This document shows positions 17,268 to 35,033 of a DNA stretch of 43,553 bases, piece after piece. The notes below the pieces were generated by a model that was given only the letters and a program-made list of their open reading frames with translations, had not been told where the DNA came from and did not search any database. The DNA comes from Escherichia phage EP-B-K_E2, in the sequence record OR992644.1. One strand, 5' to 3'. Each line of letters starts with the position of its first letter. Within the stretch, counting starts at the first letter, position 1. A program made the position numbers and the translations under genes.

Positions 17268-17417
17268 ATGAAAATCACAGATATTGAAGCATTCGAAGAC
17301 GCACAACTGATGGCACGTATTGCCGTTAGTAACCTGGGTGGAAGCATTCCCGCGGATTCGTTCTGGGCAGCGGCGATGCAGGCACTTAAAGCAGCTTATG
17401 CAGGAGACAAGAAATGA
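17268..17417 (+). CDS. hypothetical small protein (49 aa, not in ORF track)
   Basis: MKITDIEAFEDAQL...KAAYAGDKK; truncated paralog at 17608. Confidence 0.35.
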   Translation: MKITDIEAFEDAQLMARIAVSNLGGSIPADSFWAAAMQALKAAYAGDKK

Positions 17418-17611: not shown

Positions 17612-17679
17612 AAACCACAGATACCGAAGCATTCAAAAACGAGCAACTGAAAGCAGCCTATGCAGGAGAGAAGAAATGA
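17608..17679 (+). pseudogene. internally deleted copy of the 17268-17417 gene (23 codons)
   Basis: MKTTDTEAFKNEQLKAAYAGEKK matches N- and C-termini of 17268 product. Confidence 0.3.
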
Positions 17680-20269: not shown

Positions 20270-20327
20270 TAGACGGGCTAGATAAACGATGCTAGTATCA
20301 ACCCATCCATTGAAGTGGGTTGATACT

Positions 20328-21125
20328 ATGAATTACGAAAAGATATACGAAAGCTTTATATCTCGTTGCAGGTCGCTGCCACACCGGGGCTACGCCGAAA
20401 GACACCACATACTGCCGCGGTCCTTAGGCGGGGATGACTCCCCCGAGAATCTTATTGATTTATCCGCAAGAGAACATTTCTTCGCGCATCTCCTTCTGGC
20501 AAAAATCCACGGCGGCAACATGTGGGCCGCTCTGGCATACATGTCAAGAGGCGGCACTAAGTCAAGCAAACTACATAAATGCACATCCCGTCAGTATGAG
20601 TTTATAAAGCGTAAAGACGCTGAATGGCGTAGCTTGGCGTACCGTGGGGATAAAAACCCGTTCTACGGGAAAACGCATTCACCACAAGCCCTGGCGAAAA
20701 TGCGCAAACCTAGAGTCAATAAAGAGAGACTTTTTGGGCGGGCGGTGCCGGGTGTCGGGGCTATCATATCGTTTGTGCAGACATATAGACCCCGTGCGGT
20801 AGAAATAGATACTACGGTTAGAGACCGAATTGATAGTTGGTTCGCGGTGGACGAAGAACTGCGGCAGCTTAATGTATTCCTCGCCCGTAGCCAAGGGCAG
20901 AAAGCGCTCAATCGAGACCACCACGGCGAAAAGAACCCAAACTACGGCAATGGGAAAGCCATATCCGGCGAAAAGAACCCGATGTTCGGTAAGAAACACA
21001 GCGAAAGCACCAGGGCTAAAATTGCGGAGAAAATGAAACGCACTATGGTGTGCCCGCACTGCGGCAAAGAATCTAACATAGCAAACGCACATAGGTGGCA
21101 CTTTGACAACTGCAAACACAAATGA
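20328..21125 (+). CDS. HNH homing-type endonuclease with NUMOD3-like repeats
   Basis: HHILPRSLGGDDSPENLIDLSAREH HNH motif; repeated KNPxYGK motifs. Confidence 0.7.
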   Translation: MNYEKIYESFISRCRSLPHRGYAERHHILPRSLGGDDSPENLIDLSAREHFFAHLLLAKIHGGNMWAALAYMSRGGTKSSKLHKCTSRQYEFIKRKDAEWRSLAYRGDKNPFYGKTHSPQALAKMRKPRVNKERLFGRAVPGVGAIISFVQTYRPRAVEIDTTVRDRIDSWFAVDEELRQLNVFLARSQGQKALNRDHHGEKNPNYGNGKAISGEKNPMFGKKHSESTRAKIAEKMKRTMVCPHCGKESNIANAHRWHFDNCKHK

Positions 21126-22359
21126 GAAAGAGATGTTGCTTCTCCCGCACCAATACGAACTATTGGCTGATACCACGACAAAGATAATCGGGCTGTGTTC
21201 CGGATTCGGGGGCGGTAAAACGTACAGCGCCGCGCGTAAAGCGGTGCATCTGGCTCTTCTTAACCCAGGTGTAGACGGAATAATAACAGAGCCGACGTTT
21301 CCTCTGTTAGTGCAGGTTATGTTTCCAGAACTTATGGCGGCGCTGGACTTCTTCGGCGTCAAATACAAGTTCAACAAGGTTGAGTCTATTTTTTATTGCG
21401 ACATAAACGGGCAAACAACCCGTATTATTTGCGGAAGTATGGAGAACTATCAGCGACTTATCGGGATAAACGCCGCGTGGTGCGTGTGCGACGAGTTTGA
21501 TACCGCTAAGCAAGAAACCGCTTATGCCGCGTACATGAAGCTGCTAGGCCGCCTTCGTAGGGGTAATGTGCGCCAGTTGGTGATAGTGTCTACCCCTGAG
21601 GGTTTCAGGGCGATGTACCAGATATTCGTAACCGAAGCCGATGCCAGCAAACGGCTAATACGTGCGAAGACAACCGATAACTACCACTTACCAGCGGACT
21701 ACGTAGAGTCAATGCGCAGCCAGTACCCTGAGCAACTCATAAACGCCTATCTGAATGGCGAGTTCGTAAACCTTACATCTGGAGTTGTATATTATGGCTA
21801 TCAACGAGGTAAATGCGAATCCAACGAAACTATTAAACCGGGTGAACCTCTATACATTGGGCAGGATTTTAACGTCGGCAAAATGGCGTCGTGCGTTTAT
21901 GTAAAACGCGGTGCTGATTTTCATGCGGTAGCCGAGTTGGTCGACCTTTTTGATACCCCTGATGTAGTTCGCGTTATCAAGGAGCGGTGGGCCGGGCATC
22001 ACATAATTATGTACCCAGACGCCAGTGGTCGTAATCGTAAAAGCAACTCCGCTTCCACATCTGACATAGCTATCCTGGAGCAAGCAGGATTTGAGATTAG
22101 AGCTAAATCAAAAAATCCACCTGTGAAAGACCGTGTCGCCGCGAGTAACGCCGCGTTTGAAAAAGGTAGAGTCTTTATTAACTCGAAGGCTTGCCCTGCA
22201 ACGGCGCGAGGATTAGAGCAGCAAGCCTATGATAAAAACGGTGAGCCAGAGAAAAACGGCGTAATCGACCATATGGTTGACGCAGCTACATACTTGATCG
22301 CTTACGAGATGCCAGTAGCTAAACCTGTCATTAATATACCGGTTACTTTCGCGCTATAA
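21103..22359 (+). CDS. terminase large subunit
   Basis: Walker A-like GFGGGKTYSA, 418 aa, followed by portal. Confidence 0.8.
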   Translation: MTTANTNEKEMLLLPHQYELLADTTTKIIGLCSGFGGGKTYSAARKAVHLALLNPGVDGIITEPTFPLLVQVMFPELMAALDFFGVKYKFNKVESIFYCDINGQTTRIICGSMENYQRLIGINAAWCVCDEFDTAKQETAYAAYMKLLGRLRRGNVRQLVIVSTPEGFRAMYQIFVTEADASKRLIRAKTTDNYHLPADYVESMRSQYPEQLINAYLNGEFVNLTSGVVYYGYQRGKCESNETIKPGEPLYIGQDFNVGKMASCVYVKRGADFHAVAELVDLFDTPDVVRVIKERWAGHHIIMYPDASGRNRKSNSASTSDIAILEQAGFEIRAKSKNPPVKDRVAASNAAFEKGRVFINSKACPATARGLEQQAYDKNGEPEKNGVIDHMVDAATYLIAYEMPVAKPVINIPVTFAL

Positions 22360-22507
22360 CGTATGTGTGTTAGCATTTAAAAAGCTGCTTAATTGCGGCT
22401 TTTGTTGTTGGTGATATTTCTTACTGCGACCATCGTGTGATACCCTGTCCACACTAGGTGGGCTAATTCTTGCGCCCCGCTACAGCAAACACGAGGGCCA
22501 ACTAACA

Positions 22508-23983
22508 ATGTTAACTATGAACGGTCAGAATCAGGGTGTTAAGACAAAACACCGGGAATGGCTGCATCACTTTAGTAAATGGCAGAAGGTCCGCCACGCT
22601 CTGGAAGGCGACCTTATCCGCTATCTTCGCAACGTCGGGAAGAACGAACCTGACCCAACGTACGCGGCCCAACGGCAAGAAGAATATGAGAACGGTGCTA
22701 TCTGCTACAACTTCACCAAGCGTACTCTGGCGGGAATGGTCGGTTCAGTGATGCGCAAAGACCCTGAGCAGATTATTCCGCCTGAACTGGAATACCTGTT
22801 ACGCAATGCTGATGGTTCTGGTGTTGGCCTGTGGCAGCACGCGCAGGACACGCTGATGGAGATTGACTCAGTAGGCCGTGGTGGGTTGCTGGTTGATGCC
22901 CCAGAGACAGCTGCGGCAACGGCGGCAGAGCAGAACGCAGGATTATTAAACCCGGTCATCGCATTCTACACCGCGGAGAACATCATCAACTGGCGACTGA
23001 CCCGCATCGGTTCCGTTAACCGCGTGACTATGGTCGTGTTGCGGGAGGTATGGGAATACTCGGAACCGGGCGCAGAGTTCGAAACAAAGTTCGGGGAGCA
23101 ATACCGAGTCCTTGACCTGATTGACGGTCGCTACCGCCAGCGCATTTACCGCTTCGATGCCGAAGGTGGCGCACAGGATGAAGTAATCGAAATATTCCCG
23201 GAACTAGGCGAACAGTTGCGCGGAAAAATCCCGTTCACGTTCATTGGCGCAAGCAACAACGATGCGACCATCGACGATGCGCCTTTGCTGCCGTTGGCTG
23301 AGCTTAATATCGGGCATTTCCGCAACAGTGCAGACAATGAGGAGTCCAGCTTCGTTGTAGGCCAGCCCACGCTGTTCATCGCCCCTGGTGAGAACATGAG
23401 CATGGAGCAGTGGAAAGAAGCCAACCCGCACGGCGTGCGCATGGGGTCGCGCTCGGGCCATAACATCGGTTACGGCGGCAATGCGTTTCTGGTTCAGGCG
23501 GGAGAGAACAACCTCGCCAAACAGAACATGCTGGATAAAGAGAATCAGGCCATCCAGATTGGCGCGCAGCTTATCACCCCGACGCAGCAAATCACCGCGG
23601 AATCGGCCCGTCTGCAACGTGGAGCGGATACGTCTGTTATGGCGACAATTGCCCGTAACGTAAGCATGGCGTACACCGATGCGTTGCGCTGGGTGGCGGC
23701 GATGCTAGGGTTGCGCGAAGACACAGAGATTGAATTCAAGCTGAATATGGAGTTCTTCCTGCAACCGATGACCGCCCAGGACCGTGCTCAGTGGATGGCC
23801 GATATTAACGCGGGCCTGTTACCGGCTACTGCCTACTACGCGGCATTGCGCAAGGCTGGGGTGACTGACTGGACCGACGAGGACATTCAGAACGCTATCG
23901 AGGATGCACCTCTGCCGTTGGTTACACAGACTACCGGGGAGATTCCGTCTACAGCGCAGCAGGATGAAGAGGCGAAGCAATGA
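22508..23983 (+). CDS. portal protein
   Basis: 491 aa, position between large terminase and head morphogenesis gene. Confidence 0.7.
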   Translation: MLTMNGQNQGVKTKHREWLHHFSKWQKVRHALEGDLIRYLRNVGKNEPDPTYAAQRQEEYENGAICYNFTKRTLAGMVGSVMRKDPEQIIPPELEYLLRNADGSGVGLWQHAQDTLMEIDSVGRGGLLVDAPETAAATAAEQNAGLLNPVIAFYTAENIINWRLTRIGSVNRVTMVVLREVWEYSEPGAEFETKFGEQYRVLDLIDGRYRQRIYRFDAEGGAQDEVIEIFPELGEQLRGKIPFTFIGASNNDATIDDAPLLPLAELNIGHFRNSADNEESSFVVGQPTLFIAPGENMSMEQWKEANPHGVRMGSRSGHNIGYGGNAFLVQAGENNLAKQNMLDKENQAIQIGAQLITPTQQITAESARLQRGADTSVMATIARNVSMAYTDALRWVAAMLGLREDTEIEFKLNMEFFLQPMTAQDRAQWMADINAGLLPATAYYAALRKAGVTDWTDEDIQNAIEDAPLPLVTQTTGEIPSTAQQDEEAKQ

Positions 23984-25035
23984 GCCAGCTATCACAGATG
24001 ATTATCAGCCATCAAATATGGCTACAGAGACTCGGAACGCAAACAGCGTCGCTGTCCATCCCCTTCGTCAATAAGATGCGGGCTGAGGTGCGCGACGCGG
24101 TGCTTAAGTTCGGTGACGACGCGCGAACAGTGAAGAAGCTGAATAAAATGCTGGCAAGCCTGGATGGCGTGCTGGACGACGTCACCGGAGACTGGAAGAG
24201 CACGATAGAGAAGAGCCTGCGCGAGATTGCCGACTACGAGAATAAGTGGTTTATCCATACGTTGGAGGCCAACACGAAGCCGAAAACGTTCATTACTGGA
24301 CCTACGGCAGAAGAACTGTGGTCGCGTATCAAGTTCGCACCACTGGCGCTGGGTAACGCACCTGTTGGCGTTATGGACCTGATGTCCGGTTGGGCGCAGA
24401 CTGAGCGTAACCGCCTTGTGCGTGGCGTACAGACCGGCTTTGTGCAGGGACAGACAACCCGCCAGATTGTCTCTGCCGTTGCGGGCCCTGGCGGCCTGGC
24501 TGATATCTCTGAGCGCAACGTAATGACGGTAGTCCGAACAGCAGTGAGCCACGTATCGAACACGGCGCGAGATTCTGTGTACGTCAGCAACAGCGATATT
24601 GTGCGCAAATATCAGTGGGTATCTACGCTCGACAGCCGCACTTCGACTGTATGTAAGTCGCGCGACGGCCAGAAATATGACGTAGGTAGAGGGCCTATGC
24701 CCCCCGCACACCCAAACTGTCGCAGTACCACTATCCCAGTAATCGAAGATGACTTCCTGGACTTTCTCGACGAGGGGGCTAAGCGGGCGGCTAAGGGTGC
24801 AGACGGGGGTACTCAGGTAAGCGCAGACACCACCTATTACGAGTTCCTGAAACAACAACCGGCGTGGTTTCAGGACCAGGCGCTCGGCCCGGTGCGCGGT
24901 AAGATTTTCCGTAACAGCGGTATATCGCCGGAAGAGTTTCGCGTAATATCTGTAGATGGTTTCGGGAATCCGCTCACGCTTAAGCAGATGGCGGAACTCG
25001 ATAAACGTGTTGCCGATTATCTGAAAGGGGAATAA
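23980..25035 (+). CDS. head morphogenesis / minor capsid protein (SPP1 gp7 / Mu F-like)
   Basis: 351 aa directly after portal with overlapping stop/start. Confidence 0.6.
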   Translation: MSQLSQMIISHQIWLQRLGTQTASLSIPFVNKMRAEVRDAVLKFGDDARTVKKLNKMLASLDGVLDDVTGDWKSTIEKSLREIADYENKWFIHTLEANTKPKTFITGPTAEELWSRIKFAPLALGNAPVGVMDLMSGWAQTERNRLVRGVQTGFVQGQTTRQIVSAVAGPGGLADISERNVMTVVRTAVSHVSNTARDSVYVSNSDIVRKYQWVSTLDSRTSTVCKSRDGQKYDVGRGPMPPAHPNCRSTTIPVIEDDFLDFLDEGAKRAAKGADGGTQVSADTTYYEFLKQQPAWFQDQALGPVRGKIFRNSGISPEEFRVISVDGFGNPLTLKQMAELDKRVADYLKGE

Positions 25036-25496
25036 TGATGGGCTTTTTCAAAGTAACTGATGTGCCGTCGCGTCGCGTAGTCCAGTACGCCCGTGTGTCT
25101 GGCTCCGGCGAGAACGTGGTATTTATTGAGGACGAAAGTGTACTTGGTACACCTGTAGACGACATGCCGTTTGCCGATAAAACAGGCATTGCGCTGCCAG
25201 CGGCGGGTATGCTTTACGAGATTCCGTATCTGGCTGATGCGGGTGATGTGTATTTCTCTGTGCAACCGAAAGACGCTGAACTTGCGGACGGCAGCGCAAA
25301 TATCACTGTCGAAGTTAAGGCGGGCAAAGCTCCGTATTCACTTACCTGGTACAAGGACGGTAAGGAAGTGGTGAACGCCCCCGAGGAGGCTATGTCTCTG
25401 AGGGTTAACGCGGTCGGTGAATACTTCGTTAAAGTCGCCGATGCCGACGGCGTAGAGGCGGTAAGCAAAGCGGCGAAGGTTACTAAGCCAGAATGA
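25035..25496 (+). CDS. Ig-like domain protein (possible capsid decoration)
   Basis: C-terminal YSLTWYKDGKEV Ig-like strand motif shared with 29159 product. Confidence 0.45.
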   Translation: MMGFFKVTDVPSRRVVQYARVSGSGENVVFIEDESVLGTPVDDMPFADKTGIALPAAGMLYEIPYLADAGDVYFSVQPKDAELADGSANITVEVKAGKAPYSLTWYKDGKEVVNAPEEAMSLRVNAVGEYFVKVADADGVEAVSKAAKVTKPE

Positions 25497-25500
25497 TAGA

Positions 25501-25529
25501 AGGCCCTGAAAGGGCCTTATTTTTTTTTA
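25501..25529 (+). terminator. rho-independent terminator
   Basis: aggccct-gaa-agggcct followed by 9 T. Confidence 0.7.
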
Positions 25530-25808
25530 TACAAATACGAATCCATCGCTGGTAGAGGTGTATCGGGTGGCGCCGTTTTTCGTTTCAGGCCAACAGATAT
25601 ATGAGCGACCATGATACTCTATCCACCAAAGTTCTACATCGGCACCTTCATTAGGTCGCGTCAACCACCCGTGGTGCAGCCAATACTTGCGCCCTATTTT
25701 AAATATGCCTTCTTCGCCTGAAGGCCTGCAACAGGCGACGCACTCTACTTGAATACCATCAACCTGCACACATGTCATATGTAAATTACTGTTTGAGTAT
25801 TTAGCCAT
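25527..25808 (-). CDS. reverse-oriented orphan gene, Cys-rich hypothetical protein
   Basis: 93-aa ORF with own promoter (25844-25872) and SD aaggaa; opposite to flanking structural genes. Confidence 0.55.
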   Translation of the reverse strand: MAKYSNSNLHMTCVQVDGIQVECVACCRPSGEEGIFKIGRKYWLHHGWLTRPNEGADVELWWIEYHGRSYICWPETKNGATRYTSTSDGFVFV

Positions 25809-25843
25809 TTCTAAATTCCTTATCTCTCGTTTCGATGTAATGA

Positions 25844-25872
25844 ATAGTACCCTATTATGCTGGTGTGTGCAA
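25844..25872 (-). promoter_or_regulatory. sigma70-like promoter TTGCAC-N17-TACTAT with dyad (minus strand)
   Basis: Near-identical to 12844-12872 element. Confidence 0.6.
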
Positions 25873-25926
25873 ACTATTTATTTACATATTCCAGTTATTC
25901 CGCTCAATTGTAAATGTTGGAATAAA

Positions 25927-25967
25927 CTATTCGAATAGTTGACTTTTCACTAAAAATGTGATAAGCT
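25927..25967 (+). promoter_or_regulatory. palindrome CTATTCGAATAG abutting a TTGACT -35 and extended -10-like TGaTAAGCT
   Basis: Perfect 12-bp palindrome at 25927-25938; promoter-like spacing 17. Confidence 0.45.
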
Positions 25968-26143
25968 CCACCTGAGCTTGTGAAGTATGAACAAGCGACC
26001 GCGGCGCGGGCAGGTAACGGAGCGGGACGTAAGTCATGAGTGTAGTTACGCTGACGCGTTCGGAAGGGCCATACTCTATTGCTTGTGTAAAAAGTAACTG
26101 GTTTACTGAGATTACGCCGTTTCTATGTTTAAATGATAAGGAC

Positions 26144-26171
26144 TAGCGCCCCGCTTTAAGGCGGGGCTTTA
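26144..26171 (+). promoter_or_regulatory. GC-rich hairpin in leader upstream of spanin genes (possible attenuator)
   Basis: gccccgc-tttaag-gcggggc followed by tttactt. Confidence 0.4.
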
Positions 26172-26191
26172 CTTATCGAGAAAGGAGAAAC

Positions 26192-26578
26192 ATGAATCTT
26201 AAAGCAACTGTCGTAGCAGGAGCATGTTTCATCATCCTGGCTTACGCGCACGGCATCTACCAGTATCGCAGCGGCTGGAACGAAGGCCGGGTGAATCTCG
26301 TTTCGCAGCAACATCAGAAAGCACAGGCGGAGCTAGCGAAGAAAACACAACGGCAGCAGCAGGATGAATCAAAGGCCGCAGCCGCCGACAACGAAGGCAA
26401 GACGAAATCAGAGGTGATTACCCGTGAAGTCGTTAAGTACATTAAAACGCCTGGCCGCAGCGTGTGCACTTTCGACGATGCTCGCGTCCTGCTCAAGTCC
26501 CGCGCCGTCGCCAACGCCAATTCCATCCCCGGATACGACAATGATGCAGCCTCCGTGCAAACTGGCGGCGCCAAGTAG
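26192..26578 (+). CDS. i-spanin (Rz-like)
   Basis: N-terminal TM helix, Gln/Ala/Lys-rich periplasmic region, overlapping lipoprotein gene in +1 frame. Confidence 0.6.
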   Translation: MNLKATVVAGACFIILAYAHGIYQYRSGWNEGRVNLVSQQHQKAQAELAKKTQRQQQDESKAAAADNEGKTKSEVITREVVKYIKTPGRSVCTFDDARVLLKSRAVANANSIPGYDNDAASVQTGGAK

Positions 26579-26690
26579 CGACGCCGACGAGGATTTGGCT
26601 ATCGACGTTCAGAACGCCGAATGTGCACGGCAACTGAGACTGAAAGTGTTCATGCTGCAGGACTGGGTACGGAATGTGATGGCGGAATAA
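26424..26690 (+). CDS. o-spanin (Rz1-like outer-membrane lipoprotein), GTG start
   Basis: Signal peptide with lipobox LASC, Pro-rich mature region, overlapped architecture with i-spanin. Confidence 0.6.
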   Translation: MKSLSTLKRLAAACALSTMLASCSSPAPSPTPIPSPDTTMMQPPCKLAAPSSDADEDLAIDVQNAECARQLRLKVFMLQDWVRNVMAE

Positions 26691-26691
26691 G

Positions 26692-26715
26692 AAAAGCCCC
26701 TTATGGGGCTTTGTT
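26692..26715. terminator. bidirectional rho-independent terminator
   Basis: aagcccc-ttat-ggggctt flanked by A-run upstream and T-rich downstream. Confidence 0.55.
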
Positions 26716-26718
26716 GCG

Positions 26719-26883
26719 TTAAAAGTTTCCGTATACAAAATTACGTTTTCTGGTTCTCAATGGGACCCATGCAGGTATGTTATCATTGTGGACGAAATGT
26801 TCCTCATAGAAGAAAACCTTTTTGGTATTGCTGGACCAATGGTCCATTTTTAAAATTCTTCTTGCTTTTGCGTTTCTGGTCAT
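26719..26883 (-). CDS. reverse-oriented small ORF (54 aa, not in ORF track)
   Basis: Strong SD acaggaggg 7 nt upstream of ATG; convergent with spanins; shares bidirectional terminator. Confidence 0.4.
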   Translation of the reverse strand: MTRNAKARRILKMDHWSSNTKKVFFYEEHFVHNDNIPAWVPLRTRKRNFVYGNF

Positions 26884-26910
26884 TCTTATGCCCTCCTGTT
26901 TAAGTTACCT

Positions 26911-26932
26911 CCTATAATAGCACCCTATTATA
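26911..26932. promoter_or_regulatory. AATAG-N4-CTATT dyad element with TATAAT/TATTAT boxes (strand ambiguous)
   Basis: ctataatagcaccctattatat matches the dyad family at 25844 and 35034. Confidence 0.45.
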
Positions 26933-27033
26933 TTGGTGTCTATAGGGGTGGTTGCCTTCTGATGTGGAATAATTTATTCTTGACATGTAAATCCGGGTGG
27001 CCCGGGTTCCAACGTCCAGGGGACATACTGACT

Positions 27034-27735
27034 ATGAATCTTTTTTTACGCTATCCGTTCCAGGAAGAAGCTGGGGCAGAAGATAAAGCGGGTGGCGGTG
27101 ATGCACCGAAAATGTTCACCGCTGAAGAAGTTCAGGCGCTGATTGAGAAAGAAGTCGCCGGGCTTAAGGCCAATCAGGAAGCGTTGCTCGCGGAGAAGAA
27201 AGAAGCCGCTCGCAAAGCAAAAGAGGCCGAAGAAGAACGGCAGCGCGCCCACCAGGAGGCGTTAAAAGCCGCCGGTAAGATGGACGAGTTCGAAAAGACG
27301 ATTCGTAGCCAGTATGACCCGGTGTTAGCCGAGAAAGATGGTCGCATCTCCAAAATGGCAGAGCGCATCCTCGGCAGCGAACGTAAAGCGGTGTTAGGCT
27401 CTTTCGCGGGCGACTTTATCACCCCTGAAGCAGTAGACATTCTTGCACCGTTCGTTAAGACTGAGTTCGAAGGTGACGATGTGGTTACTAAGTTTGTCGG
27501 CGCAGACGGCAACGTAATCACGACTGACCCGGAACAGTTCCGCAAATACCTACGTGAACACAAAGCGTTTTCGCATTTGATTAAAGCAAATGCAGCTTCC
27601 GGCGGCGGGGCTTCCGGTGGCAAAGGCGGCGGGGCCGCACCAGCGTTTAAAGACATGAGTGAAGCGGAGCGTTTAGCTCTGTACAAATCGAACCCTGCCG
27701 AATTTGAACGGCAACTTAAAGCCCTGAGGAAATAA
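27034..27735 (+). CDS. scaffolding protein
   Basis: Ala/Glu/Lys-rich coiled coil, immediately upstream of major capsid gene. Confidence 0.6.
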   Translation: MNLFLRYPFQEEAGAEDKAGGGDAPKMFTAEEVQALIEKEVAGLKANQEALLAEKKEAARKAKEAEEERQRAHQEALKAAGKMDEFEKTIRSQYDPVLAEKDGRISKMAERILGSERKAVLGSFAGDFITPEAVDILAPFVKTEFEGDDVVTKFVGADGNVITTDPEQFRKYLREHKAFSHLIKANAASGGGASGGKGGGAAPAFKDMSEAERLALYKSNPAEFERQLKALRK

Positions 27736-27737
27736 TA

Positions 27738-28787
27738 ATGGCAATTACCACTATCGGCGATATCGTAACTGGCAACATCCCGGTCCTGGCGTCTTATATG
27801 ACCGAGGACCCGGTAGAAAAAACCGCGTTCTTCCAGTCCGGTATTCTGACCCCGACTCCGTACGCTGCCGAGATCGCTCGCGGCCCGTCCAACATCGCCA
27901 ACATTCCTTTCTGGAAAGCGATTGATACTTCTATTGAGCCTAACTACTCGAACGATGTGTATCAGGATATCGCTACCCCACGTAATGTGCAGACCGGCGA
28001 GATGATGGCCCGCGTTGCCTACCTGAACGAAGGCTTTGGCCAGGCAGACCTGACGGTTGAACTGACCAGTCAGAATCCGCTGCAATCCGTGGCTTCTCGC
28101 TTGGATAACTTCTGGCAGCGCCAGGCACAACGCCGTCTGATTGCTACCGCTCTCGGTCTGTACAATGACAACGTAGCCGCTACCGATGCTTACCACGAGC
28201 AGAACGACATGGTTATCGACGTGTCCGCTACTCTGGGCTTCGACGCAGGCGCATTCATCGACGCTACCCAGACTATGGGTGACGCCCTGATGGGCAACGG
28301 TGGTGAAGTGCTGGGCGCCATCGCGATGCACAGCTTCGTTTATGCGCAGGCACGTAAGCAGCAGCTTATTGACTTCATTAAAGACGCTGACAACGACACC
28401 CTGTTCGCCACCTACCAGGGTTATCGTGTGATTGTTGACGACAGCATGACCGTAGTCGGTACTGGCGGTGGCCGTAAGTTCATCTCTATCATCTTCGGTA
28501 ACGGCGCTATCGGTTACGGCGAGGGCAACCCGTCCAACCCGCTGGAATATGAACGCGAACCGTCTCGCGGTAACGGTGGTGGCGTCGAAACCCTGTGGAC
28601 TCGTAAGACCTGGCTGCTGCACCCACTGGGCTACAGCTTCACCAGCGCAGTAATCACCGGTAACGGCACCGAGACTGTCGCACGTTCTGCTTCCTGGCAG
28701 GACCTGGCGAACGCCTCCAACTGGAACCGTGTGGTTGATCGTAAGCACGTACCTATTGCCTTCCTGGTAACTGGTGTCGGTGCTTAA
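27738..28787 (+). CDS. major capsid protein
   Basis: 349 aa after scaffold gene, followed by strong terminator. Confidence 0.7.
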   Translation: MAITTIGDIVTGNIPVLASYMTEDPVEKTAFFQSGILTPTPYAAEIARGPSNIANIPFWKAIDTSIEPNYSNDVYQDIATPRNVQTGEMMARVAYLNEGFGQADLTVELTSQNPLQSVASRLDNFWQRQAQRRLIATALGLYNDNVAATDAYHEQNDMVIDVSATLGFDAGAFIDATQTMGDALMGNGGEVLGAIAMHSFVYAQARKQQLIDFIKDADNDTLFATYQGYRVIVDDSMTVVGTGGGRKFISIIFGNGAIGYGEGNPSNPLEYEREPSRGNGGGVETLWTRKTWLLHPLGYSFTSAVITGNGTETVARSASWQDLANASNWNRVVDRKHVPIAFLVTGVGA

Positions 28788-28803
28788 GGTTAAGCTATAA
28801 TCG

Positions 28804-28830
28804 AGAGGGACTTCGGTCCCTCTTTTCATT
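28804..28830 (+). terminator. rho-independent terminator with UUCG tetraloop
   Basis: agagggac-ttcg-gtccctct followed by tttcatt. Confidence 0.7.
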
Positions 28831-28846
28831 TACTAAGAGGTAAATT

Positions 28847-29146
28847 ATGGTTAAGACCGGAAAAGGCTTACCGCGCAGCCTTCAGAATGTCGATTTCGGC
28901 GACTTTGATATCCCTGTCACGCCTGCTACTACCAGCGTGGTTGGTGGGGTTAAAAAGTCAGCTACTGTAGCCGCACCAGCGGCCATTACCGCTGGCGAAG
29001 GAGCGCAGTCTGCTGATGCTCCAACTAAGACAGAGTTCGATGCCCTTGTAGCAGAGTACAACAGACTCCGAACTGATGTTACCGCGCTGCGCACTACCGT
29101 AGCAAATCTGTTGACTGCGCTTAAAAACGCAGGAACCGTAAGCTAA
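28847..29146 (+). CDS. hypothetical structural protein
   Basis: 99 aa, SD taagaggtaa upstream. Confidence 0.5.
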   Translation: MVKTGKGLPRSLQNVDFGDFDIPVTPATTSVVGGVKKSATVAAPAAITAGEGAQSADAPTKTEFDALVAEYNRLRTDVTALRTTVANLLTALKNAGTVS

Positions 29147-29158
29147 AGGAGCTTAAAA

Positions 29159-29509
29159 ATGGTTGATGTAATCAAACGTCGTATTACCGGTGTTTCTGAT
29201 GATTCTCCTGCCGATGGTCAGGTTGAAATCGATATGGCAAATATCTCGCCGGCATCTTTTTCTACCGCGCTGAACGCTACCACAGCAGTTACAGCCGGGC
29301 AGACTATGACACTGACCGTAGTTGTTACTGGTGGTCTGGGGCCGTATTCCTACCAGTGGTACAAAGATAACAACGCCATCGCCGGGGCTACCGCAGCTAC
29401 CTACGCTAAAGCGTCAACCACTACCGCAGATTCTGGTACGTATAAAGTGGTTGTTCACGATGTGTATGGTAATATTATCTCCAGCAGCACTGTAGCGACT
29501 GTATCTTAA
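29159..29509 (+). CDS. Ig-like domain protein (possible decoration protein)
   Basis: YSYQWYKDNNAIAG...GTYKVVVHD Ig-like motif. Confidence 0.5.
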   Translation: MVDVIKRRITGVSDDSPADGQVEIDMANISPASFSTALNATTAVTAGQTMTLTVVVTGGLGPYSYQWYKDNNAIAGATAATYAKASTTTADSGTYKVVVHDVYGNIISSSTVATVS

Positions 29510-29545
29510 TATGGCGGCCCTTCGGGGCCGTAATAAGGAAAGACC

Positions 29546-29725
29546 ATGGCAGATAATTACGTAATCCGCGAAAAGTACACCCACGTTGATGTTGTTGACG
29601 GTCAGGTGATGCCGGTCCGCGGTGTTGTAGAGGCGGATGAACTGGTTACAACCCAACCGGACAACGAAGAAGCGCACAACAACGGCGGTGGTGCTAAGCG
29701 TCGTCGCCGTAAGTCAGAGGAATAA
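29546..29725 (+). CDS. hypothetical small protein (59 aa, not in ORF track)
   Basis: SD aaggaaag upstream; basic C-terminus. Confidence 0.35.
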   Translation: MADNYVIREKYTHVDVVDGQVMPVRGVVEADELVTTQPDNEEAHNNGGGAKRRRRKSEE

Positions 29726-29728
29726 TTT

Positions 29729-30241
29729 ATGCCGCTAATCGTGGAAACTGGGGTGATCGTCCCGAATGCCGACAGTTACGTTAGTCTGGCTGACGCCCGC
29801 GCGTTAGCGGCTAATTATGGCCTGGAGCTGCCGGAAGACGATACTGCCGCCGAAGTTGCCTTACGCAACGGTGCTACTTATGTTGGGCTGGCAGAACCGC
29901 AGATGTGTGGCCGTCGCGTATCCGCTGAACAGTCTCTGGCGTTCCCCCGCACTGGCGTTACGTTGAATGGTTTCCTCGTAGCTAACAATGCCATTCCGAA
30001 ACAGGTAATTCTTGCGCAGGTAATCGCCTCTGCTACATATGGCGCGGGTACTGAGGTTCGTGCTAACTCTGACGGTCGCTCTGTGCAGACTGAGCGTGTA
30101 GAAGGAGCGGTAACGGTGACGTACTTCAACAACGGCAGCAGTGGCGCCACGACTGCGATTACCGCCGCTGACGACGCCTTACGCCCGTTACTGTGCGGTG
30201 GTCTTAACAATGGCTTCTCGTTTAACGTGTACCGGGGTTAA
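29729..30241 (+). CDS. putative head-tail connector/adaptor protein
   Basis: Position after capsid genes; 170 aa. Confidence 0.4.
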   Translation: MPLIVETGVIVPNADSYVSLADARALAANYGLELPEDDTAAEVALRNGATYVGLAEPQMCGRRVSAEQSLAFPRTGVTLNGFLVANNAIPKQVILAQVIASATYGAGTEVRANSDGRSVQTERVEGAVTVTYFNNGSSGATTAITAADDALRPLLCGGLNNGFSFNVYRG

Positions 30242-30243
30242 AA

Positions 30244-30858
30244 ATGGCGAAGACTAAAACAGAGATATTTACGCTAATCGGTTCAGAGCTACCCGATAAC
30301 ACGAACGGACTTATCACACCAGCGAAGTTACGCGGGGTGTTAACACAGATGGCGGACTCACCTATCTACGCCACTCCCGGTGTTAAAGAGGTTGAAGTTC
30401 TCCGCGCGGTGTCGGCTGACGCCCAAGCGCCTACCGCGGTAGATACGGCATTGCAGTTATCGTTTGGCTCCGCTCAGGGAAGTGCATCCGACCCAGTAAT
30501 GATTAATGCTGCGGGGCTGGTTACGTTCAACACTGCGGGTAACTACGCCGTTCGCATCAAGTTACAAGCGGGTCGCACAGGCGCTAGTGGGACCTCTATC
30601 CTTTTATCGCGCATTCTGGTTAATGGCGCACAATACGGCTCGCCCGCTGCCACAAAACTGGTAAGCGCGGACACCACAATTCCTATTGAGTCCCGCGTTG
30701 TTATTAACCCAACCGCAGGACAGACGTTTGCCGTTCAGATTATGCGGGATAGCGCCGGGAGTAACTTCGGTGGCGTATACCCTCAAGCGGCTACCGTAAC
30801 CGCATGGGGGACCGCACCATCCGCGCTACTGGTTATTTCGAGACTGGAGGCCGCGTAA
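30244..30858 (+). CDS. hypothetical structural protein
   Basis: 204 aa in head-tail joining region. Confidence 0.45.
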   Translation: MAKTKTEIFTLIGSELPDNTNGLITPAKLRGVLTQMADSPIYATPGVKEVEVLRAVSADAQAPTAVDTALQLSFGSAQGSASDPVMINAAGLVTFNTAGNYAVRIKLQAGRTGASGTSILLSRILVNGAQYGSPAATKLVSADTTIPIESRVVINPTAGQTFAVQIMRDSAGSNFGGVYPQAATVTAWGTAPSALLVISRLEAA

Positions 30859-31217
30859 TGGGCACCGCTTTCAGTAGACGTATGCAAGGTGTGGGCACGC
30901 GCCTGCTAACCAAATTCGGCAGCACGGTATCCCTGGTTCGCGCTGGCTCTAAAGTATGGGACGAAGTCCTCGGGGAATACGTCTGGTCCGCCGACGAAGT
31001 GTTGCCGTTGAAGGCTGTTCCGGTTCCGGTAAACGCTGGACTGGTGAACGGTACGACGATTCAGGCGGGAGACATGATTGTTAAAGCGGATTGCAGTGTC
31101 GTACCAAAAATGGAAGACAAGGTGCAATTCGGCGGCGAGCAATGGTCTGTCGTAGCTATCGAGAAGAAGATGGTTAACGACGATGTCGTGGCATACTTTA
31201 TTCAGGTGCGCAAATGA
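30858..31217 (+). CDS. putative head closure / neck protein
   Basis: ORF trimmed to ATG with SD ggagg; position. Confidence 0.4.
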   Translation: MGTAFSRRMQGVGTRLLTKFGSTVSLVRAGSKVWDEVLGEYVWSADEVLPLKAVPVPVNAGLVNGTTIQAGDMIVKADCSVVPKMEDKVQFGGEQWSVVAIEKKMVNDDVVAYFIQVRK

Positions 31218-31612
31218 CACCATTTGAACAGTCTATTCAGAATTTTATAAAGAAGGCCAAAAAGAACCCTGAACTGGTGGTTCGCCAGGTCACGATTAAA
31301 TTATATTCTCAGATTATAATGGCAAGTCCCGTTGACACGGGTAGATTCAGGATGAATTGGCAGGTCAGTAATAACAAGCCAGCAACGGGTGTTTTAATAG
31401 CAGACGATCCTTCCGGGAGCAGAGCTATAGGTCGGATGACAAATTACGTTATATCATCTCCTGAGTGGGAAAATTTCTGTTTTACAAATAATTTGCCATA
31501 TGCGGAAAGGTTAGAATATGGGTACTCACAACAAGCACCTCAAGGCATGGTCCGTGTGACTGTCGCCAGATTTCAACGTCTACTCAACGAAGCTGCGGCG
31601 AGGGCAGATTGA
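31214..31612 (+). CDS. HK97 gp10-like tail/neck component
   Basis: SPVDTGRFRMNW motif resembling HK97 gp10 family. Confidence 0.45.
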   Translation: MTPFEQSIQNFIKKAKKNPELVVRQVTIKLYSQIIMASPVDTGRFRMNWQVSNNKPATGVLIADDPSGSRAIGRMTNYVISSPEWENFCFTNNLPYAERLEYGYSQQAPQGMVRVTVARFQRLLNEAAARAD

Positions 31613-32025
31613 TGGGCTATTTCGAGGACTTAACAAAAGCGTTCGATGTGCCGCTGGTAGCCTTCGGAACCGCCAACGGCATCAAGGTTGCGCTTGAAAA
31701 CATCGACGCGCCGACGTCAACAGATACGCCGTATCTGGCTAGTTACATGTTGCTGGCGGATACGGAACAGGCGGATTTGTTCTTCACAGAACAACGCTCT
31801 GGTATTTATCAGGTTGACATTAACTACGCATCGGTGAAAGGTAGCGCGCCAATCAATAAAATGGCAGACTTACTTAACACGGCGTTTAAAGCAGGTAAGT
31901 CATTTTCACGTAACGACATCTGCGCCGAGGTTCAATCGGTTAGCCTGGGGCCGCTGATTGTAGAAAACGGATGGGCCAAACGGCCATTGTCAATTAACTT
32001 TATTGCATTCACCAAGAGGCTGTGA
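31609..32025 (+). CDS. putative tail terminator/completion protein
   Basis: Position immediately upstream of major tail protein. Confidence 0.4.
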   Translation: MMGYFEDLTKAFDVPLVAFGTANGIKVALENIDAPTSTDTPYLASYMLLADTEQADLFFTEQRSGIYQVDINYASVKGSAPINKMADLLNTAFKAGKSFSRNDICAEVQSVSLGPLIVENGWAKRPLSINFIAFTKRL

Positions 32026-33194
32026 ATATGGCTACAACTCCTTTTAAGGGCGCGAATACCGCGCAATTCTATGTGGCGGAAACTACCCCGGGCGTAACAC
32101 CTACTAACCCGGTCTGGTCGCCGTTGCGTAACACCGGCGGTGTCCCCGCTGTAACCCGCGATGCGCTGACTTCTAACGAACTGGACGGCAGCCGAGAAAC
32201 CACATCCATTCGCACCGGTAACAAACAGGTAAGCGGGGAGTATGCCATCGAACTTAGCTCACGTAGCCAGGATGATTTCCTTGCGGGTGCTATGACTTCT
32301 ACGTGGCAGGATGGGGTAGAGATTACGGGTGCCAAAATTACGGTCGCCCCAGCAGGTAAAACATTCACCCGCGCTGCCGGTAGCTTCATTACTGACGGTG
32401 TAGAAGTTGGCGACCTGATTGCGTTCACCGACTTAACCGGCGACAACGCAAAACCGTTTATCGTGACCGCGGTTTCTGCTCTTGTAGTTACGGGTTCGGG
32501 CATTCAGCACACGCTGACCGCAGAGACTGTAACCACCAACGCTAAAACTGGCGATAAACTGGAAACCAGCAACACATGTAAGACGTTCTCCATCCTGACA
32601 TGGTTCAAAGGCCAGTGCGGAAACCCGGACGCGTACATGTTGACCAAAGGCGTGGAAATCTCTGGCTTCACCATTGAACAGGCGGTGAACGCAATGGTAA
32701 CTGGCAGCTTCCCGTTCATCGGCCTGAGCCAGGAGATTCTTACCGCACCGCCGTCTGGCTCTAATTTCTCTCAGGTGACGTTCACCGATGAGCCGTTCTC
32801 TTCTGTAGATGTGTCTGTGCTCGACGGTTCTACACCGTTGCGTTGCGACACACTTACCATCACCAACGACAACGGCGCTTCCGCACAGTTTGAACTAGGG
32901 AACAGTAGCGTTGCATTCGTGGAACGTGGCCGCGCGGCTAACACCTTCTCTATCTCCGGCAAGCTGTACGACATGGCGATGATTCAGAAGTTTATCAACG
33001 AACAGCAGGTGGAGATTAACTCTATTCTGGCGGGGGTAAACGGGGCTATGTCTTTCAGTTTGAAACGTGCCGAACTTACGGCGGTTACACCAGAGATTGG
33101 CGGGCCTGAGTCAATCACTCAGTCTATTGAAGGCCAGGCTACGGGCAACCAGTACCAGTCGTCTATTGTTATCCAGCGTATCACCTACGCATAA
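32022..33194 (+). CDS. major tail protein
   Basis: 390 aa, upstream of chaperone and tape measure, followed by strong terminator. Confidence 0.55.
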   Translation: MNMATTPFKGANTAQFYVAETTPGVTPTNPVWSPLRNTGGVPAVTRDALTSNELDGSRETTSIRTGNKQVSGEYAIELSSRSQDDFLAGAMTSTWQDGVEITGAKITVAPAGKTFTRAAGSFITDGVEVGDLIAFTDLTGDNAKPFIVTAVSALVVTGSGIQHTLTAETVTTNAKTGDKLETSNTCKTFSILTWFKGQCGNPDAYMLTKGVEISGFTIEQAVNAMVTGSFPFIGLSQEILTAPPSGSNFSQVTFTDEPFSSVDVSVLDGSTPLRCDTLTITNDNGASAQFELGNSSVAFVERGRAANTFSISGKLYDMAMIQKFINEQQVEINSILAGVNGAMSFSLKRAELTAVTPEIGGPESITQSIEGQATGNQYQSSIVIQRITYA

Positions 33195-33195
33195 A

Positions 33196-33226
33196 ACTAA
33201 GGCCCCTTTCGGGGCCTTTTTTTTCT
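33196..33226. terminator. bidirectional rho-independent terminator
   Basis: aaggcccc-tttc-ggggcctt with A-run upstream and 8 T downstream. Confidence 0.7.
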
Positions 33227-33456
33227 TACTCGTCAATATTGCTTCGATACTCCCGTAACTTCTCCAGACTTTCAATTGCTTCCGCTAAGTCTGTTCCGGT
33301 GTCCTTGTGCCCGCGCAAGCCCATACACAATAGCTTCTTCAATGCATGCTGTAACGCCGGGTCGCGGATGTCGAAGGCGCGTAGCACATCATAAACGTCT
33401 ACTGTCATAGTGCTGCCGTGAGTGTTTGTCATGGTGCGGTTGTATTTATTTGTCAC
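33226..33456 (-). CDS. DUF3310-like small protein
   Basis: DVYDVLRAF...ALKKLLCMGLRGHKD...LAEAIESLEKL resembles DUF3310 signature. Confidence 0.45.
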   Translation of the reverse strand: MTNKYNRTMTNTHGSTMTVDVYDVLRAFDIRDPALQHALKKLLCMGLRGHKDTGTDLAEAIESLEKLREYRSNIDE

Positions 33457-33642
33457 TGTTAACTCTCTTAAATCGGGCTATGCCTGACTCGTTAATGTTG
33501 CCTATTTCAAAGAAGCTGCGATATTTAGGCTAATACATTCTTACGTCGCCATTCTCTAGGGTTATTCCTTCATATACAGCACCTACTTAGAACCCATTTT
33601 TCTCTGCGTACGGACTCACATCGGTGCATTCATACATGTCTC

Positions 33643-34773: not shown

Positions 34774-34811
34774 GCTTACTTCCTCGTGTTTAGGATTTGT
34801 CTTATAGTAGC

Positions 34812-35003: not shown

Positions 35004-35033
35004 TTTAAACCCCTTCATTGTTGGTGTAAGTGA

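What the first reader, a model, noticed from the sequence alone, without database searches (positions are those of the whole stretch)
25927..26191. Promoter plus roughly 220-nt untranslated leader with terminal hairpin upstream of the spanins
A palindrome CTATTCGAATAG abuts a TTGACT -35 and an extended -10-like TGaTAAGCT, followed by about 220 nt with no convincing ORF and a GC-rich hairpin (26144-26171) just before the spanin SD. This could be a regulated leader or attenuator, or a small RNA. The only reading frames are about 20 codons and lack SDs.
Basis: seen in the sequence. Interest (0 to 1): 0.45.

Follow-up and report, generated by a model that had tools for sequence, protein, structure and literature searches.

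The report
Structured leader RNA before phage spanins
The interval holds a conserved promoter and a roughly 217-base non-coding, tightly folded RNA leader at the head of a phage's spanin and capsid operon; versions of it occur in nearly 500 related phage genomes, it matches no catalogued RNA family, and its last hairpin covers the start of the first gene, so it probably controls how much of that gene is made.

Summary
The window is a complete Kagunavirus-like (Guernseyvirinae) phage genome. At 25939-25967 lies a sigma-70 promoter of the extended -10 type. Its key bases are kept in three diverged leader classes.

The roughly 217 nt before the i-spanin ATG (26192) do not code for protein. The 36-codon ORF that some GenBank records annotate is broken in 7 of 33 close variants and is absent in diverged relatives.

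The leader is a structured RNA with compensatory changes:
- 5' domain: 97.6% of cells paired, and 14 of 25 pairs changed on both sides.
- 3' domain: 97.5% paired, 6 of 26 pairs.

The base of that hairpin pairs with the Shine-Dalgarno sequence, the AUG and the first codons of i-spanin. A U-rich tail follows the hairpin only in the Kagunavirus-type class.

No Rfam family matches. My models find nothing in the lambda or HK022 antitermination regions.

Best reading: a cis-acting 5' leader that sets translation and stability. Attenuation or a separate small RNA is possible only in this class. The function has not been tested.

The parts
25887..25938 (+). Array of half-sites upstream of the promoter: TATTCC 25887-92 and 25896-901, GGAATAA 25919-25, CTATTC 25927-32 and GAATAG 25933-38. 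It is presumably the binding site of a regulator.
   Evidence: The array ATTCCAGTTATTCC-N17-GGAATA-N3-TATTC is conserved in classes A, B and C while the sequence further upstream differs. The half-sites are related to the genome-wide AATAG-N4-CTATT motif. Which protein binds is inferred, not shown.
25939..25967 (+). Sigma-70 promoter of the extended -10 type: -35 TTGACT (25939-44), 17-nt spacer, TG (25959-60) and -10 TAAGCT (25962-67). The predicted transcription start is 25974/25975.
   Evidence: Read directly from the sequence. TG, T-12, A-11 and T-7 are conserved across the class A, B and C variants. PHIRE predicted a host promoter at the same place in fBC-Eco01. The start site is inferred from spacing and has not been mapped.
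25976..25996 (+). P1, a hairpin at the very 5' end of the transcript: GCUUGU (25976-81) pairs with ACAAGC (25991-96).
   Evidence: It appears in the minimum-energy fold. Four of its six pairs change on both sides between classes A and B. A hairpin stands at the same place in class C (CGUUC/GAACG).
26003..26060 (+). P3-P4, a long irregular hairpin. Lower stem 26003-08/26055-60; middle 26011-13/26051-53; upper 26014-18/26045-49; conserved internal loop; P4 26024-28/26033-37, capped by the GNRA tetraloop GUAA (26029-32).
   Evidence: Compensatory changes are counted: for example C-G to U-A at the lower stem, GUAAC/GUUAC to GGAAC/GUUCC, and GAC/GUC to UGC/GCA. The minimum-energy fold is the same structure, at 58% of the ensemble. 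The window's own copy has a C-to-A change at 26036 that breaks one P4 pair.
26061..26070 (+). Conserved purine-rich single-stranded motif, CGGAAGGGCC.
   Evidence: It is nearly invariant in classes A, B and C. No conserved pairing partner was found. Its role is unknown.
26093..26107 (+). P5, a small hairpin: AGUAA-CUGGU-UUACU.
   Evidence: In the 83%-identical variants L020 and L103 the whole stem is replaced by UGAGA/UCUUA. It is predicted. The support comes from my reading of the sequences, not from a formal count.
26108..26200 (+). Long irregular hairpin of the 3' domain. The hairpin encloses the SD (AAGGAG, 26182-87) and the i-spanin AUG (26192).
   Evidence: The minimum-energy fold of 26108-26212 reproduces every helix; z = -3.14, and 0 of 200 shuffles fold as well. 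In Ha-He, 97.5% of cells pair across classes A and B, and 6 of 26 pairs change on both sides. RNAalifold, run independently, keeps He with 2 compensatory pairs. The outermost helix (26108-13/26195-200) is invariant in class A, so it rests on thermodynamics only.
26168..26178 (+). U-rich tail (UUUACUUAUCG) after the GC stem, which gives the hairpin a terminator-like look.
   Evidence: The scan flags it, and ARNold flagged the same place in fBC-Eco01. The tail pairs with 26134-46 in the extended stem. No such tail is flagged in class B or C.
26192..26690 (+). Genes downstream of the leader: i-spanin (26192-26578) and the overlapping o-spanin (26424-26690). Scaffold and major capsid genes follow.
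   Evidence: ORFs are listed. Relatives annotate them as i-spanin and o-spanin. A strong terminator at 25500-25518 ends the upstream operon.

Best explanation
This is the control region at the head of the phage's main structural-gene operon (spanins, scaffold, major capsid, head-tail and tail genes).

**Transcription.** Host RNA polymerase starts at a conserved sigma-70 promoter of the extended -10 type (25939-25967). An array of TATTCC-type half-sites flanks the promoter and probably binds a regulator. The polymerase then transcribes a non-coding leader of about 217 nt.

**What the leader does.** The leader acts in cis on the message it heads.
1. The RNA begins with a hairpin (P1) within one or two bases of its 5' end. 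Such a hairpin is known to protect E. coli messages from 5'-end-dependent decay.
2. A long irregular hairpin capped by a GNRA loop (P3-P4) and a conserved single-stranded CGGAAGGGCC follow. Together they make a folded platform whose partner is unknown.
3. The last 90 nt or so fold into a long irregular hairpin. Its base pairs with the last Shine-Dalgarno bases, the AUG and the first codons of i-spanin. This should hold spanin translation down, or make it depend on something that opens or cuts the stem. RNase III is the obvious candidate, given a coaxial helix of more than 26 bp.
4. In this Kagunavirus-type version only, the GC tip of that hairpin is followed by a U-rich tail. It may therefore also stop a fraction of transcripts.

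**Shown here:** promoter conservation, the absence of a conserved ORF, the helices and their compensatory changes, and the occlusion of the start site in the predicted fold.

**Inferred:** the transcription start site, stabilisation by P1, translational throttling, RNase III involvement and partial termination.
For: - **Genome and operon context.** The window is a complete Guernseyvirinae genome. A strong terminator at 25500 ends the terminase-portal-decoration operon. The next + strand genes are the spanins, scaffold and MCP.
- **Promoter.** The promoter and the upstream half-site array are conserved in classes A, B and C, while the sequence further upstream is replaced.
- **Non-coding.** The 36-aa ORF is truncated, frameshifted or lacks its start in 7 of 33 class A variants, and it is absent from classes B to E. 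The ATG of the second ORF is unique to this window.
- **Constraint.** Mean pairwise identity is 0.94-0.98 in the leader against 0.79-0.96 in the spanin coding sequence.
- **5' domain structure.** In class A, 96.4% of cells are paired, and 0 of 500 shuffles reach the covariation score. Across A+B, 97.6% are paired, 14 of 25 pairs change on both sides, and slid controls give 27-42%. The minimum-energy fold is the same structure.
- **3' hairpin structure.** 97.5% of cells are paired, 6 of 26 pairs change on both sides, and 0 of 500 shuffles reach the score. The unbiased RNAalifold run keeps the tip with 2 compensatory pairs. The fold of 26108-26212 encloses the SD and AUG, with z = -3.14.
- **More distant relatives.** The A+B model finds classes C and D weakly (E 0.3-1.6), but at the syntenic place and on the same strand, with the same order of hairpins and the GUAA loop. 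The outer stem of the terminal hairpin covaries there too: GUAA/UUAC, GUAU/AUAC and GUGU/ACAC (sequences).
- **Spread.** In the phage collection, class A is found in 183 records, class B in 269 and classes C/D in 37.
Against: - There are no expression data. The transcription start, the RNA ends, RNA stability and translation effects are all inferred.
- The covariation counts for A+B were made on alignments fitted to the model, which leans them towards the structure. Classes A and B each have low internal diversity, so many of the 'changed' cells trace back to one ancestral split.
- The helix that covers the AUG (26108-13/26195-200) is invariant in class A and shorter in class B. It therefore rests on energy alone.
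- The weak A-U-rich basal helices may open easily, so occlusion could be mild.
- A 100-nt conserved 5' domain and the invariant CGGAAGGGCC are more elaborate than stabilisation or throttling needs. Part of the function is unexplained.
- The full-length fold is not unusually stable (z = -0.9).
Confidence: 0.55

Rival explanations
1. Transcription attenuation or antitermination module. In this reading the leader works like the lambda pR'-6S RNA-tR' unit, a nut site or an HK022 put RNA. Most transcripts would stop at the hairpin (26148-26178). A phage factor, or the folded leader itself, would make the polymerase resistant to terminators so that it reads through this site and the later ones (26693, 28803) into the capsid and tail genes.
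For: The layout parallels lambda: promoter, then a roughly 200-nt leader, then a terminator-like hairpin, then lysis (spanin) genes, then structural genes. The hairpin is flagged as terminator-like by the scan and by ARNold in fBC-Eco01. Further + strand terminators lie inside the operon, after the spanins and after the MCP. P4 is a 5-bp stem with a GNRA loop, like boxB. A large RNA that acts as a processive antiterminator is known from conjugative plasmids (PMC8191782).
Against: The U-rich tail is present only in class A. In classes B and C the same scan flags no + strand terminator at the hairpin or between the spanins and scaffold, yet the structured leader is conserved there. The U tail is itself paired in the extended stem. 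No Q-like or N-like protein was seen among the 20 small proteins scanned or in the annotated relative. The sequence TGAGCT in the early transcribed region lacks the A at position 2 that a sigma-dependent pause element needs. The leader contains no boxA consensus. The models R2 and R3 find nothing in the lambda or HK022 regulatory regions.
Confidence: 0.17
2. A separate trans-acting small RNA of about 200 nt, running from the promoter to the hairpin. Its conserved AU-rich stretch (26108-26147) would be the seed, and its GC hairpin plus U tail would bind Hfq. It would pair with a host or phage message.
For: A promoter and a terminator-like 3' end bracket about 200 nt. The AU-rich segment before the hairpin is weakly structured on its own (z = +0.6) and almost invariant in class A. 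A 13-nt complement of GAUUACGCCGUUU lies inside the terminase gene.
Against: The terminator-like tail is not conserved outside class A. The 'seed' is paired in the long 3' hairpin. Complementary 13-mers arise in about 6% of shuffles. The E. coli genomes hold no match. The element always sits directly before the spanin ribosome-binding site, as a leader would.
Confidence: 0.08
3. A small protein gene: the 36-codon ORF 25987-26097, as annotated in several GenBank records.
For: It is annotated as 'hypothetical protein' in fBC-Eco01, phiWAO78-1 and Schulenburg. It is intact in most class A leaders.
Against: It is broken in 7 of 33 class A variants: a stop after 9 codons in 4 of them, and a frameshift, a 17-aa truncation and ATG changed to ATC in one each. 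No counterpart exists in classes B to E; in Shelanagig a different ORF is called. There is no convincing SD. The substitutions in this stretch are compensatory for RNA helices rather than sparing codons.
Confidence: 0.03
4. A DNA-level element, such as a replication origin or a packaging site, rather than an RNA.
For: A promoter followed by an AT-rich stretch recalls the primary origin of T7.
Against: Cumulative GC skew turns near 13 kb and not here. The compensatory changes preserve the pairing of one strand, including G-U pairs, which points to RNA. The models score far higher on the + strand than on the - strand: 117 against about 20 bits.
Confidence: 0.02

Closest known systems
5' leaders whose stem occludes the ribosome-binding site and is processed by RNase III (lambda N leader, T7 R0.3 site before gene 0.3, E. 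coli adhE leader)
   Same: A long irregular helix of more than 20 coaxial base pairs, with internal loops, sits immediately before the first gene of a phage operon and includes its initiation region. A long leader precedes it.
   Different: There is no sequence similarity, and cleavage has not been shown. Here a second, separate structured 5' domain and a conserved single-stranded motif are also present.
Lambda late control unit (pR', qut, 194-nt 6S RNA, tR', then S-R-Rz/Rz1)
   Same: The order of parts is the same: promoter, then about 200 nt of non-coding RNA, then a terminator-like hairpin, then lysis genes, then structural genes.
   Different: No Q gene was found and there is no convincing sigma-dependent pause element. 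The terminator-like tail is present in one class only. The leader is highly structured and covaries. The models find nothing in lambda.
HK022 put RNAs and other cis-acting RNA antiterminators (EAR, conAn2)
   Same: A folded RNA lies just downstream of a promoter, at the head of a long operon that holds internal terminators.
   Different: put is about 70 nt with two stems. No similarity was detected. In classes B and C there are no obvious terminators to overcome before the capsid gene.
5'-terminal stabilising hairpins (the ompA 5' UTR type)
   Same: A stem-loop begins within one or two nucleotides of the predicted 5' end, and this is kept in classes A, B and C.
   Different: Only P1 fits this description. 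It does not explain the remaining 190 nt.

Membership tests
Any Rfam 15 family | Score at or above the family's gathering threshold | tested here: not met
   No matches at gathering thresholds in the whole window or in nine loci of classes B to E. The best permissive match in the interval has E = 0.6, far below threshold.
Intrinsic (Rho-independent) terminator or attenuator | GC-rich stem-loop directly followed by a U-rich tract | tested here: inconclusive
   Class A: a 7-8 bp GC stem of -17.2 kcal/mol with the tail UUUACUUAU. Classes B and C: the hairpin is kept but the same scan flags no tail. Termination efficiency cannot be tested with these tools.
Intrinsic (Rho-independent) terminator or attenuator | A conserved alternative (antiterminator) pairing that competes with the terminator stem | tested here: not met
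   No conserved competitor was found. The P4 strand is partly complementary to the terminator strand, but its variants are compensated within P4 and not in the terminator.
Lambda-type Q/qut late antitermination | A Q-family antiterminator gene in the genome | tested here: not met
   No Q-like PHROG among the 20 small proteins scanned, and none annotated in the close relative Schulenburg. Not every ORF was scanned.
Lambda-type Q/qut late antitermination | A -10-like sigma-dependent pause element in the early transcribed region | tested here: not met
   The only candidate, TGAGCT (25973-78), has G where the essential A at position 2 should be. Nothing comparable is seen in classes B or C.
Lambda-type Q/qut late antitermination | Sequence or structure similarity to the pR'-6S-tR' region | tested here: not met
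   R2 and R3 give no match in lambda 33000-46500.
HK022 put RNA | Two-stem RNA of about 70 nt, similar to putL or putR | tested here: not met
   R2 gives no match in HK022 22000-40751. R3 gives one chance-level match (E = 2.4, 9.6 bits) on the wrong kind of segment. Binding to the zinc-binding domain of the beta' subunit cannot be tested.
N/nut antitermination site | boxA (CGCUCUUA / GCUCUUUA) next to a boxB hairpin, and an N-like arginine-rich protein | tested here: not met
   P4 resembles boxB (a 5-bp stem with a GNRA loop), but GCUCUU does not occur in 25975-26191. No N-like protein was seen.
RNase III processing site | About two turns (20 bp or more) of coaxial double-stranded RNA, internal loops allowed | tested here: met
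   The 3' hairpin has 26 pairs in Ha-He plus up to 8 more at its base. P3-P4 has 19 to 22 pairs. This is a structural criterion only.
RNase III processing site | Cleavage by RNase III in vivo or in vitro | not testable with these tools
   Needs an rnc-mutant host or an in vitro cleavage assay.
Protein-coding gene (annotated 36-aa hypothetical protein) | Reading frame kept intact among relatives | tested here: not met
   Broken in 7 of 33 class A variants and absent in classes B to E.
Hfq-type trans-acting small RNA | A discrete transcript ending at a terminator with a U tail, and an accessible conserved seed | tested here: inconclusive
   The U tail is present in class A only. The candidate seed is paired in the long hairpin. 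Transcript ends cannot be tested here.

The most novel reading that the evidence does not exclude
The 5' domain would be a new class of phage regulatory RNA. It comprises P1, the GNRA-capped P3-P4 hairpin with its conserved internal loop, and the invariant CGGAAGGGCC. In this reading it binds RNA polymerase, or a phage or host factor, and so sets the timing or processivity of late transcription across the Guernseyvirinae. It would be a put-like or riboregulator-like device unrelated in sequence to any known one.
Probability: 0.12. Interest if true: 0.75.

Novelty: new variant of a known kind. Interest (0 to 1): 0.45.

Why it matters
Guernseyvirinae (Kagunavirus, Jerseyvirus, Cornellvirus) are among the phages most often isolated against E. 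coli and Salmonella and are widely proposed for therapy and biocontrol. How they regulate their late genes is essentially unstudied.

This leader is present in roughly 490 deposited genomes. There it is either left unannotated or mis-annotated as a small protein. It is more conserved than the genes next to it and has no Rfam family.

Defining it has three practical uses:
- It corrects an annotation error.
- It provides a seed for a new RNA family.
- It gives a concrete handle (promoter, upstream operator array, structured leader) for experiments on late-gene timing and on how spanin output is kept low at the head of a highly expressed capsid operon.

Tried and rejected
- **Known RNA families.** Rfam found nothing at gathering or permissive thresholds, and no tRNA or tmRNA was found.
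- **Coding potential.** The ORFs are not conserved.
- **Whole-leader folding energy.** It is not significant on either strand (z = -0.9 and -0.6). Only the separate domains and the comparative data are informative.
- **A local P2 hairpin in classes A and B (CCGC-GGN-GCGG).** I rejected it in favour of the P3 lower stem. Position 26005 (C or U) covaries with 26058 (G or A), which only P3 explains.
- **A conserved partner for CGGAAGGGCC.** None is consistent across the classes.
- **Antisense targets in the phage genome.** Two 13-mers were found, close to chance.
- **Host origin or host targets.** E. coli genomes hold no match.
- **Replication origin.** GC skew gives no signal here.
- **Homology to lambda nut, lambda pR'-6S or HK022 put.** None was found.
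- **Extending the models.** They did not reach relatives with about 50% MCP identity from soil metagenomes. Loci that lack spanins before the scaffold gene (L062, L069) have small ORFs there instead and told me nothing.
- **Literature.** I found no transcript map for this subfamily. The one RNA-seq paper on a Kagunavirus (PMC12645636) reports gene-level classes only.
- **A second promoter at TGaTAAGGA (26134-42).** I rejected it because the hexamer lacks the T at its last position.

Full report
**Setting.** The window is a complete, circularly permuted phage genome: bases 1-55 repeat at 43499-43553. The finding's region is 94-96% identical to Kagunavirus phages, which belong to the Guernseyvirinae. 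Early and replication genes lie on the minus strand (about 0.6-14 kb). Lysis, packaging and structural genes lie on the plus strand.

A strong terminator at 25500-25518 closes the terminase-portal-head-decoration block. A 93-codon minus-strand gene follows (25808 to 25527). It matches no family, and its slot holds other genes in relatives. The interval under study comes next. After it lie i-spanin (26192-26578), the overlapping o-spanin (26424-26690), and the scaffold, major capsid, connector and tail genes. The interval therefore heads the main structural operon and not only the spanins.

**Check of the observation.**
- The palindrome CTATTCGAATAG lies at 25927-25938.
- The -35 TTGACT is at 25939-25944. 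A 17-nt spacer, TG at 25959-25960 and the -10 TAAGCT at 25962-25967 follow.
- The GC hairpin lies at 26148-26167, with an energy of -17.2 kcal/mol and z = -3.6. The scan flags it as terminator-like.

The palindrome on its own is no more than chance. It is, however, built from the half-sites CTATTC and GAATAG. The related motif AATAG-N4-CTATT occurs 11 times against 1.17 expected, always in promoter-like intergenic spots. Two of those sites flank a Cro-like helix-turn-helix gene at 9476-9691, which is the likely binder. One copy with a single mismatch (25934-25947) overlaps the -35 hexamer.

One point needs correcting. The plus strand carries two 36-codon ATG ORFs (25987-26097 and 26036-26146), not only frames of about 20 codons. 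The first is annotated as a hypothetical protein in several GenBank records.

**Relatives.** I collected loci in four ways: through the capsid protein in viral contigs, through spanins, through a capsid alignment in metagenomes, and from annotated phage records. The region before i-spanin falls into recognisable classes:
- Class A: Kagunavirus and some Jerseyvirus, including this window. It includes 83%-identical variants such as L020 and L103.
- Class B: most Jerseyvirus, for example Shelanagig.
- Class C: phiEap-2 and the Cornellvirus type.
- Classes D and E: more distant relatives.

In the phage collection, class A is found in 183 records, class B in 269, and the C/D type in 37. It is usually unannotated.

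**Promoter.** TGnTAnnnT is kept in all 40 class A upstream variants and in classes B (TACGCT) and C (TAACCT, TACCCT). The -35 varies a little: TTGACT, TAGACT or TGGACT. Upstream, the array (T)ATTCCAGTTATTCC-N17-GGAATA-N3-TATTC is conserved in A, B and C. Conservation starts exactly there, even where the neighbouring gene is replaced by a terminator. The transcription start (25974/25975) is inferred from spacing.

**Not a protein gene.** The 36-codon ORF is intact in most class A leaders but broken in 7 of 33 distinct variants. In four of them a stop follows 9 codons. One has a frameshift, one stops after 17 codons, and one has ATG changed to ATC. The ORF has no counterpart in the other classes. 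The ATG of the second ORF exists only in this window, where all the others have CTG. That same C-to-A change weakens one RNA helix, P4.

**Constraint.** Among 48 distinct class A regions, mean pairwise identity is 0.94-0.98 across the leader and 0.79-0.96 across the spanin coding sequence.

**Structure of the 5' domain (25976-26070).** This domain has three parts:
- P1, a hairpin that begins one or two bases after the predicted start.
- P3-P4, a long irregular hairpin with a conserved internal loop and a GUAA tetraloop.
- A single-stranded CGGAAGGGCC.

The minimum-energy fold gives this same structure at 58% of the ensemble. On class A alone, 96.4% of cells pair, 4 pairs change on both sides, and no shuffle out of 500 reaches the covariation score. 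A covariance model built from class A finds class B at E of about 1e-6 to 1e-4. On the joint alignment, 97.6% of cells pair, 14 of 25 pairs change on both sides, and slid controls give 27-42%.

Two caveats apply. That alignment is fitted to the model. Much of the signal also comes from the single split between A and B. Independent events do exist within class A, in L009, L020 and L001.

The A+B model finds classes C and D only weakly (E 0.3-1.6). The matches are nevertheless at the syntenic place, on the same strand, with the same order of hairpins and the same GGCC-GUAA-GGCC tip. GNRA loops recur across the classes: GUAA, GCAA and GAAA.

**Structure of the 3' domain.** RNAalifold on A+B keeps only the GC hairpin, with two compensatory pairs. 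Inspection showed that the flanks also pair, and with different sequences in the two classes. In class A, UGAUAAG pairs with CUUAUCG, UAG with UUA, and GUUUCU with AGAAAC. In class B, UAUACG pairs with CGUAUA, UUAA with UUAG, and GUAU with AUAC.

A model of this extended stem finds class B at E of about 3e-6. On the resulting alignment 97.5% of cells pair, 6 of 26 pairs change on both sides, and no shuffle out of 500 reaches the score. In classes C and D the outer stem also covaries: GUAA/UUAC, GUAU/AUAC and GUGU/ACAC (sequences).

Folding 26108-26212 reproduces every helix and adds GAGAUU (26108-13) pairing with AAUCUU (26195-200), with z = -3.14. That stem encloses the last Shine-Dalgarno bases, the AUG and codons 2-3 of i-spanin. 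The outermost helix is invariant in class A, so only energy supports it.

**Terminator or not.** The U-rich tail exists in class A (ARNold flagged the same place in fBC-Eco01). In classes B and C the same scan flags no terminator at the hairpin or between the spanins and scaffold, yet the structured leader is conserved there. In class A the tail is itself paired within the extended stem. The function shared by the family is therefore unlikely to be termination or its relief. Partial termination in this class remains possible.

**Comparison with known systems.** No Rfam family matches, at curated or permissive thresholds, in any class. My models find nothing in lambda (nutL, nutR, pR'-6S-tR') or in HK022 (the put and Q regions). 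No Q-like or N-like protein appears among the 20 small proteins scanned or in the annotated relative. E. coli genomes hold no similar sequence. GC skew gives no sign of a replication origin. I found no transcript map for this subfamily in the literature.

**Mechanism.**
- Best supported: a cis-acting 5' leader. P1 at the 5' end is the classic arrangement for protection from 5'-end-dependent decay; this rests on established knowledge of E. coli mRNA decay. The 3' stem occludes the i-spanin initiation region. It should throttle translation or make it depend on opening or cleavage. Its coaxial helix of more than 26 bp meets the structural criterion for an RNase III substrate, as in the lambda N leader and the T7 R0.3 site.
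- A plausible rationale: spanins are needed in small amounts, yet here they sit first in a message made in bulk for capsid proteins.
- Unexplained: the role of the P3-P4 hairpin and of CGGAAGGGCC. No conserved partner was found for the motif. This leaves room for a more novel function.

**Verdict.** The element is a conserved structured RNA supported by compensatory changes, with no catalogued family. I rate it a new variant of a known kind (a cis-regulatory phage leader). Its mechanism is inferred, not demonstrated.

Noticed in passing
window 3166, 7075, 9388, 9432, 12860, 14071, 16982, 25843, 25934, 26916, 35033: The palindrome AATAG-N4-CTATT occurs 11 times (at most 1 mismatch) against 1.17 expected. 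Every copy lies in a promoter-like intergenic spot, mostly across the spacer and -10 of minus-strand promoters. Two copies flank the Cro-like HTH gene at 9476-9691, so they are probably its operators.
   Followed up: partly
window 1-55 and 43499-43553: An exact 55-bp terminal repeat. The window is a circular assembly of a 43,498-bp genome with a k-mer overlap.
   Followed up: yes
window 26693-26945, minus strand: A small self-contained minus-strand unit lies between the spanins and the scaffold gene. It has a promoter (26942 to 26914, TAGACA-17-TATTAT with TG), a 54-codon ORF (26883 to 26719) with no PHROG match, and a bidirectional terminator (26693-26712). It is transcribed against the late operon.
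   Followed up: partly
window 25527-25808, minus strand: A 93-codon ORF with its own operator-bearing promoter (25841-25872) and no PHROG match. In relatives the same slot holds a sliding-clamp fragment, a DNA methyltransferase or nothing, so it is a variable 'moron' slot.
   Followed up: partly
window 26036: This genome alone has A where relatives have C (GUCA instead of GUCC). The change breaks one pair of helix P4 and creates the ATG of the spurious ORF 26036-26146.
   Followed up: yes
window 22253-22265 and 35296-35308: Two 13-nt stretches on plus-strand messages are complementary to the leader: one to GAUUACGCCGUUU and one to the 5' strand of the hairpin. Matches of this length arise in about 6% of shuffles.
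   Followed up: partly
window 17384-17417 and 17646-17679: A 34-nt direct repeat (91% identical) that ends in AGGAGA-N6-ATGA. It looks like duplicated ribosome-binding and start regions of small neighbouring ORFs.
   Followed up: no
window 20289-22359: Two overlapping long plus-strand ORFs (278 and 418 codons) lie where relatives have a single large terminase gene. This may be an inserted or fused endonuclease, or an alternative start. I did not examine it.
   Followed up: no
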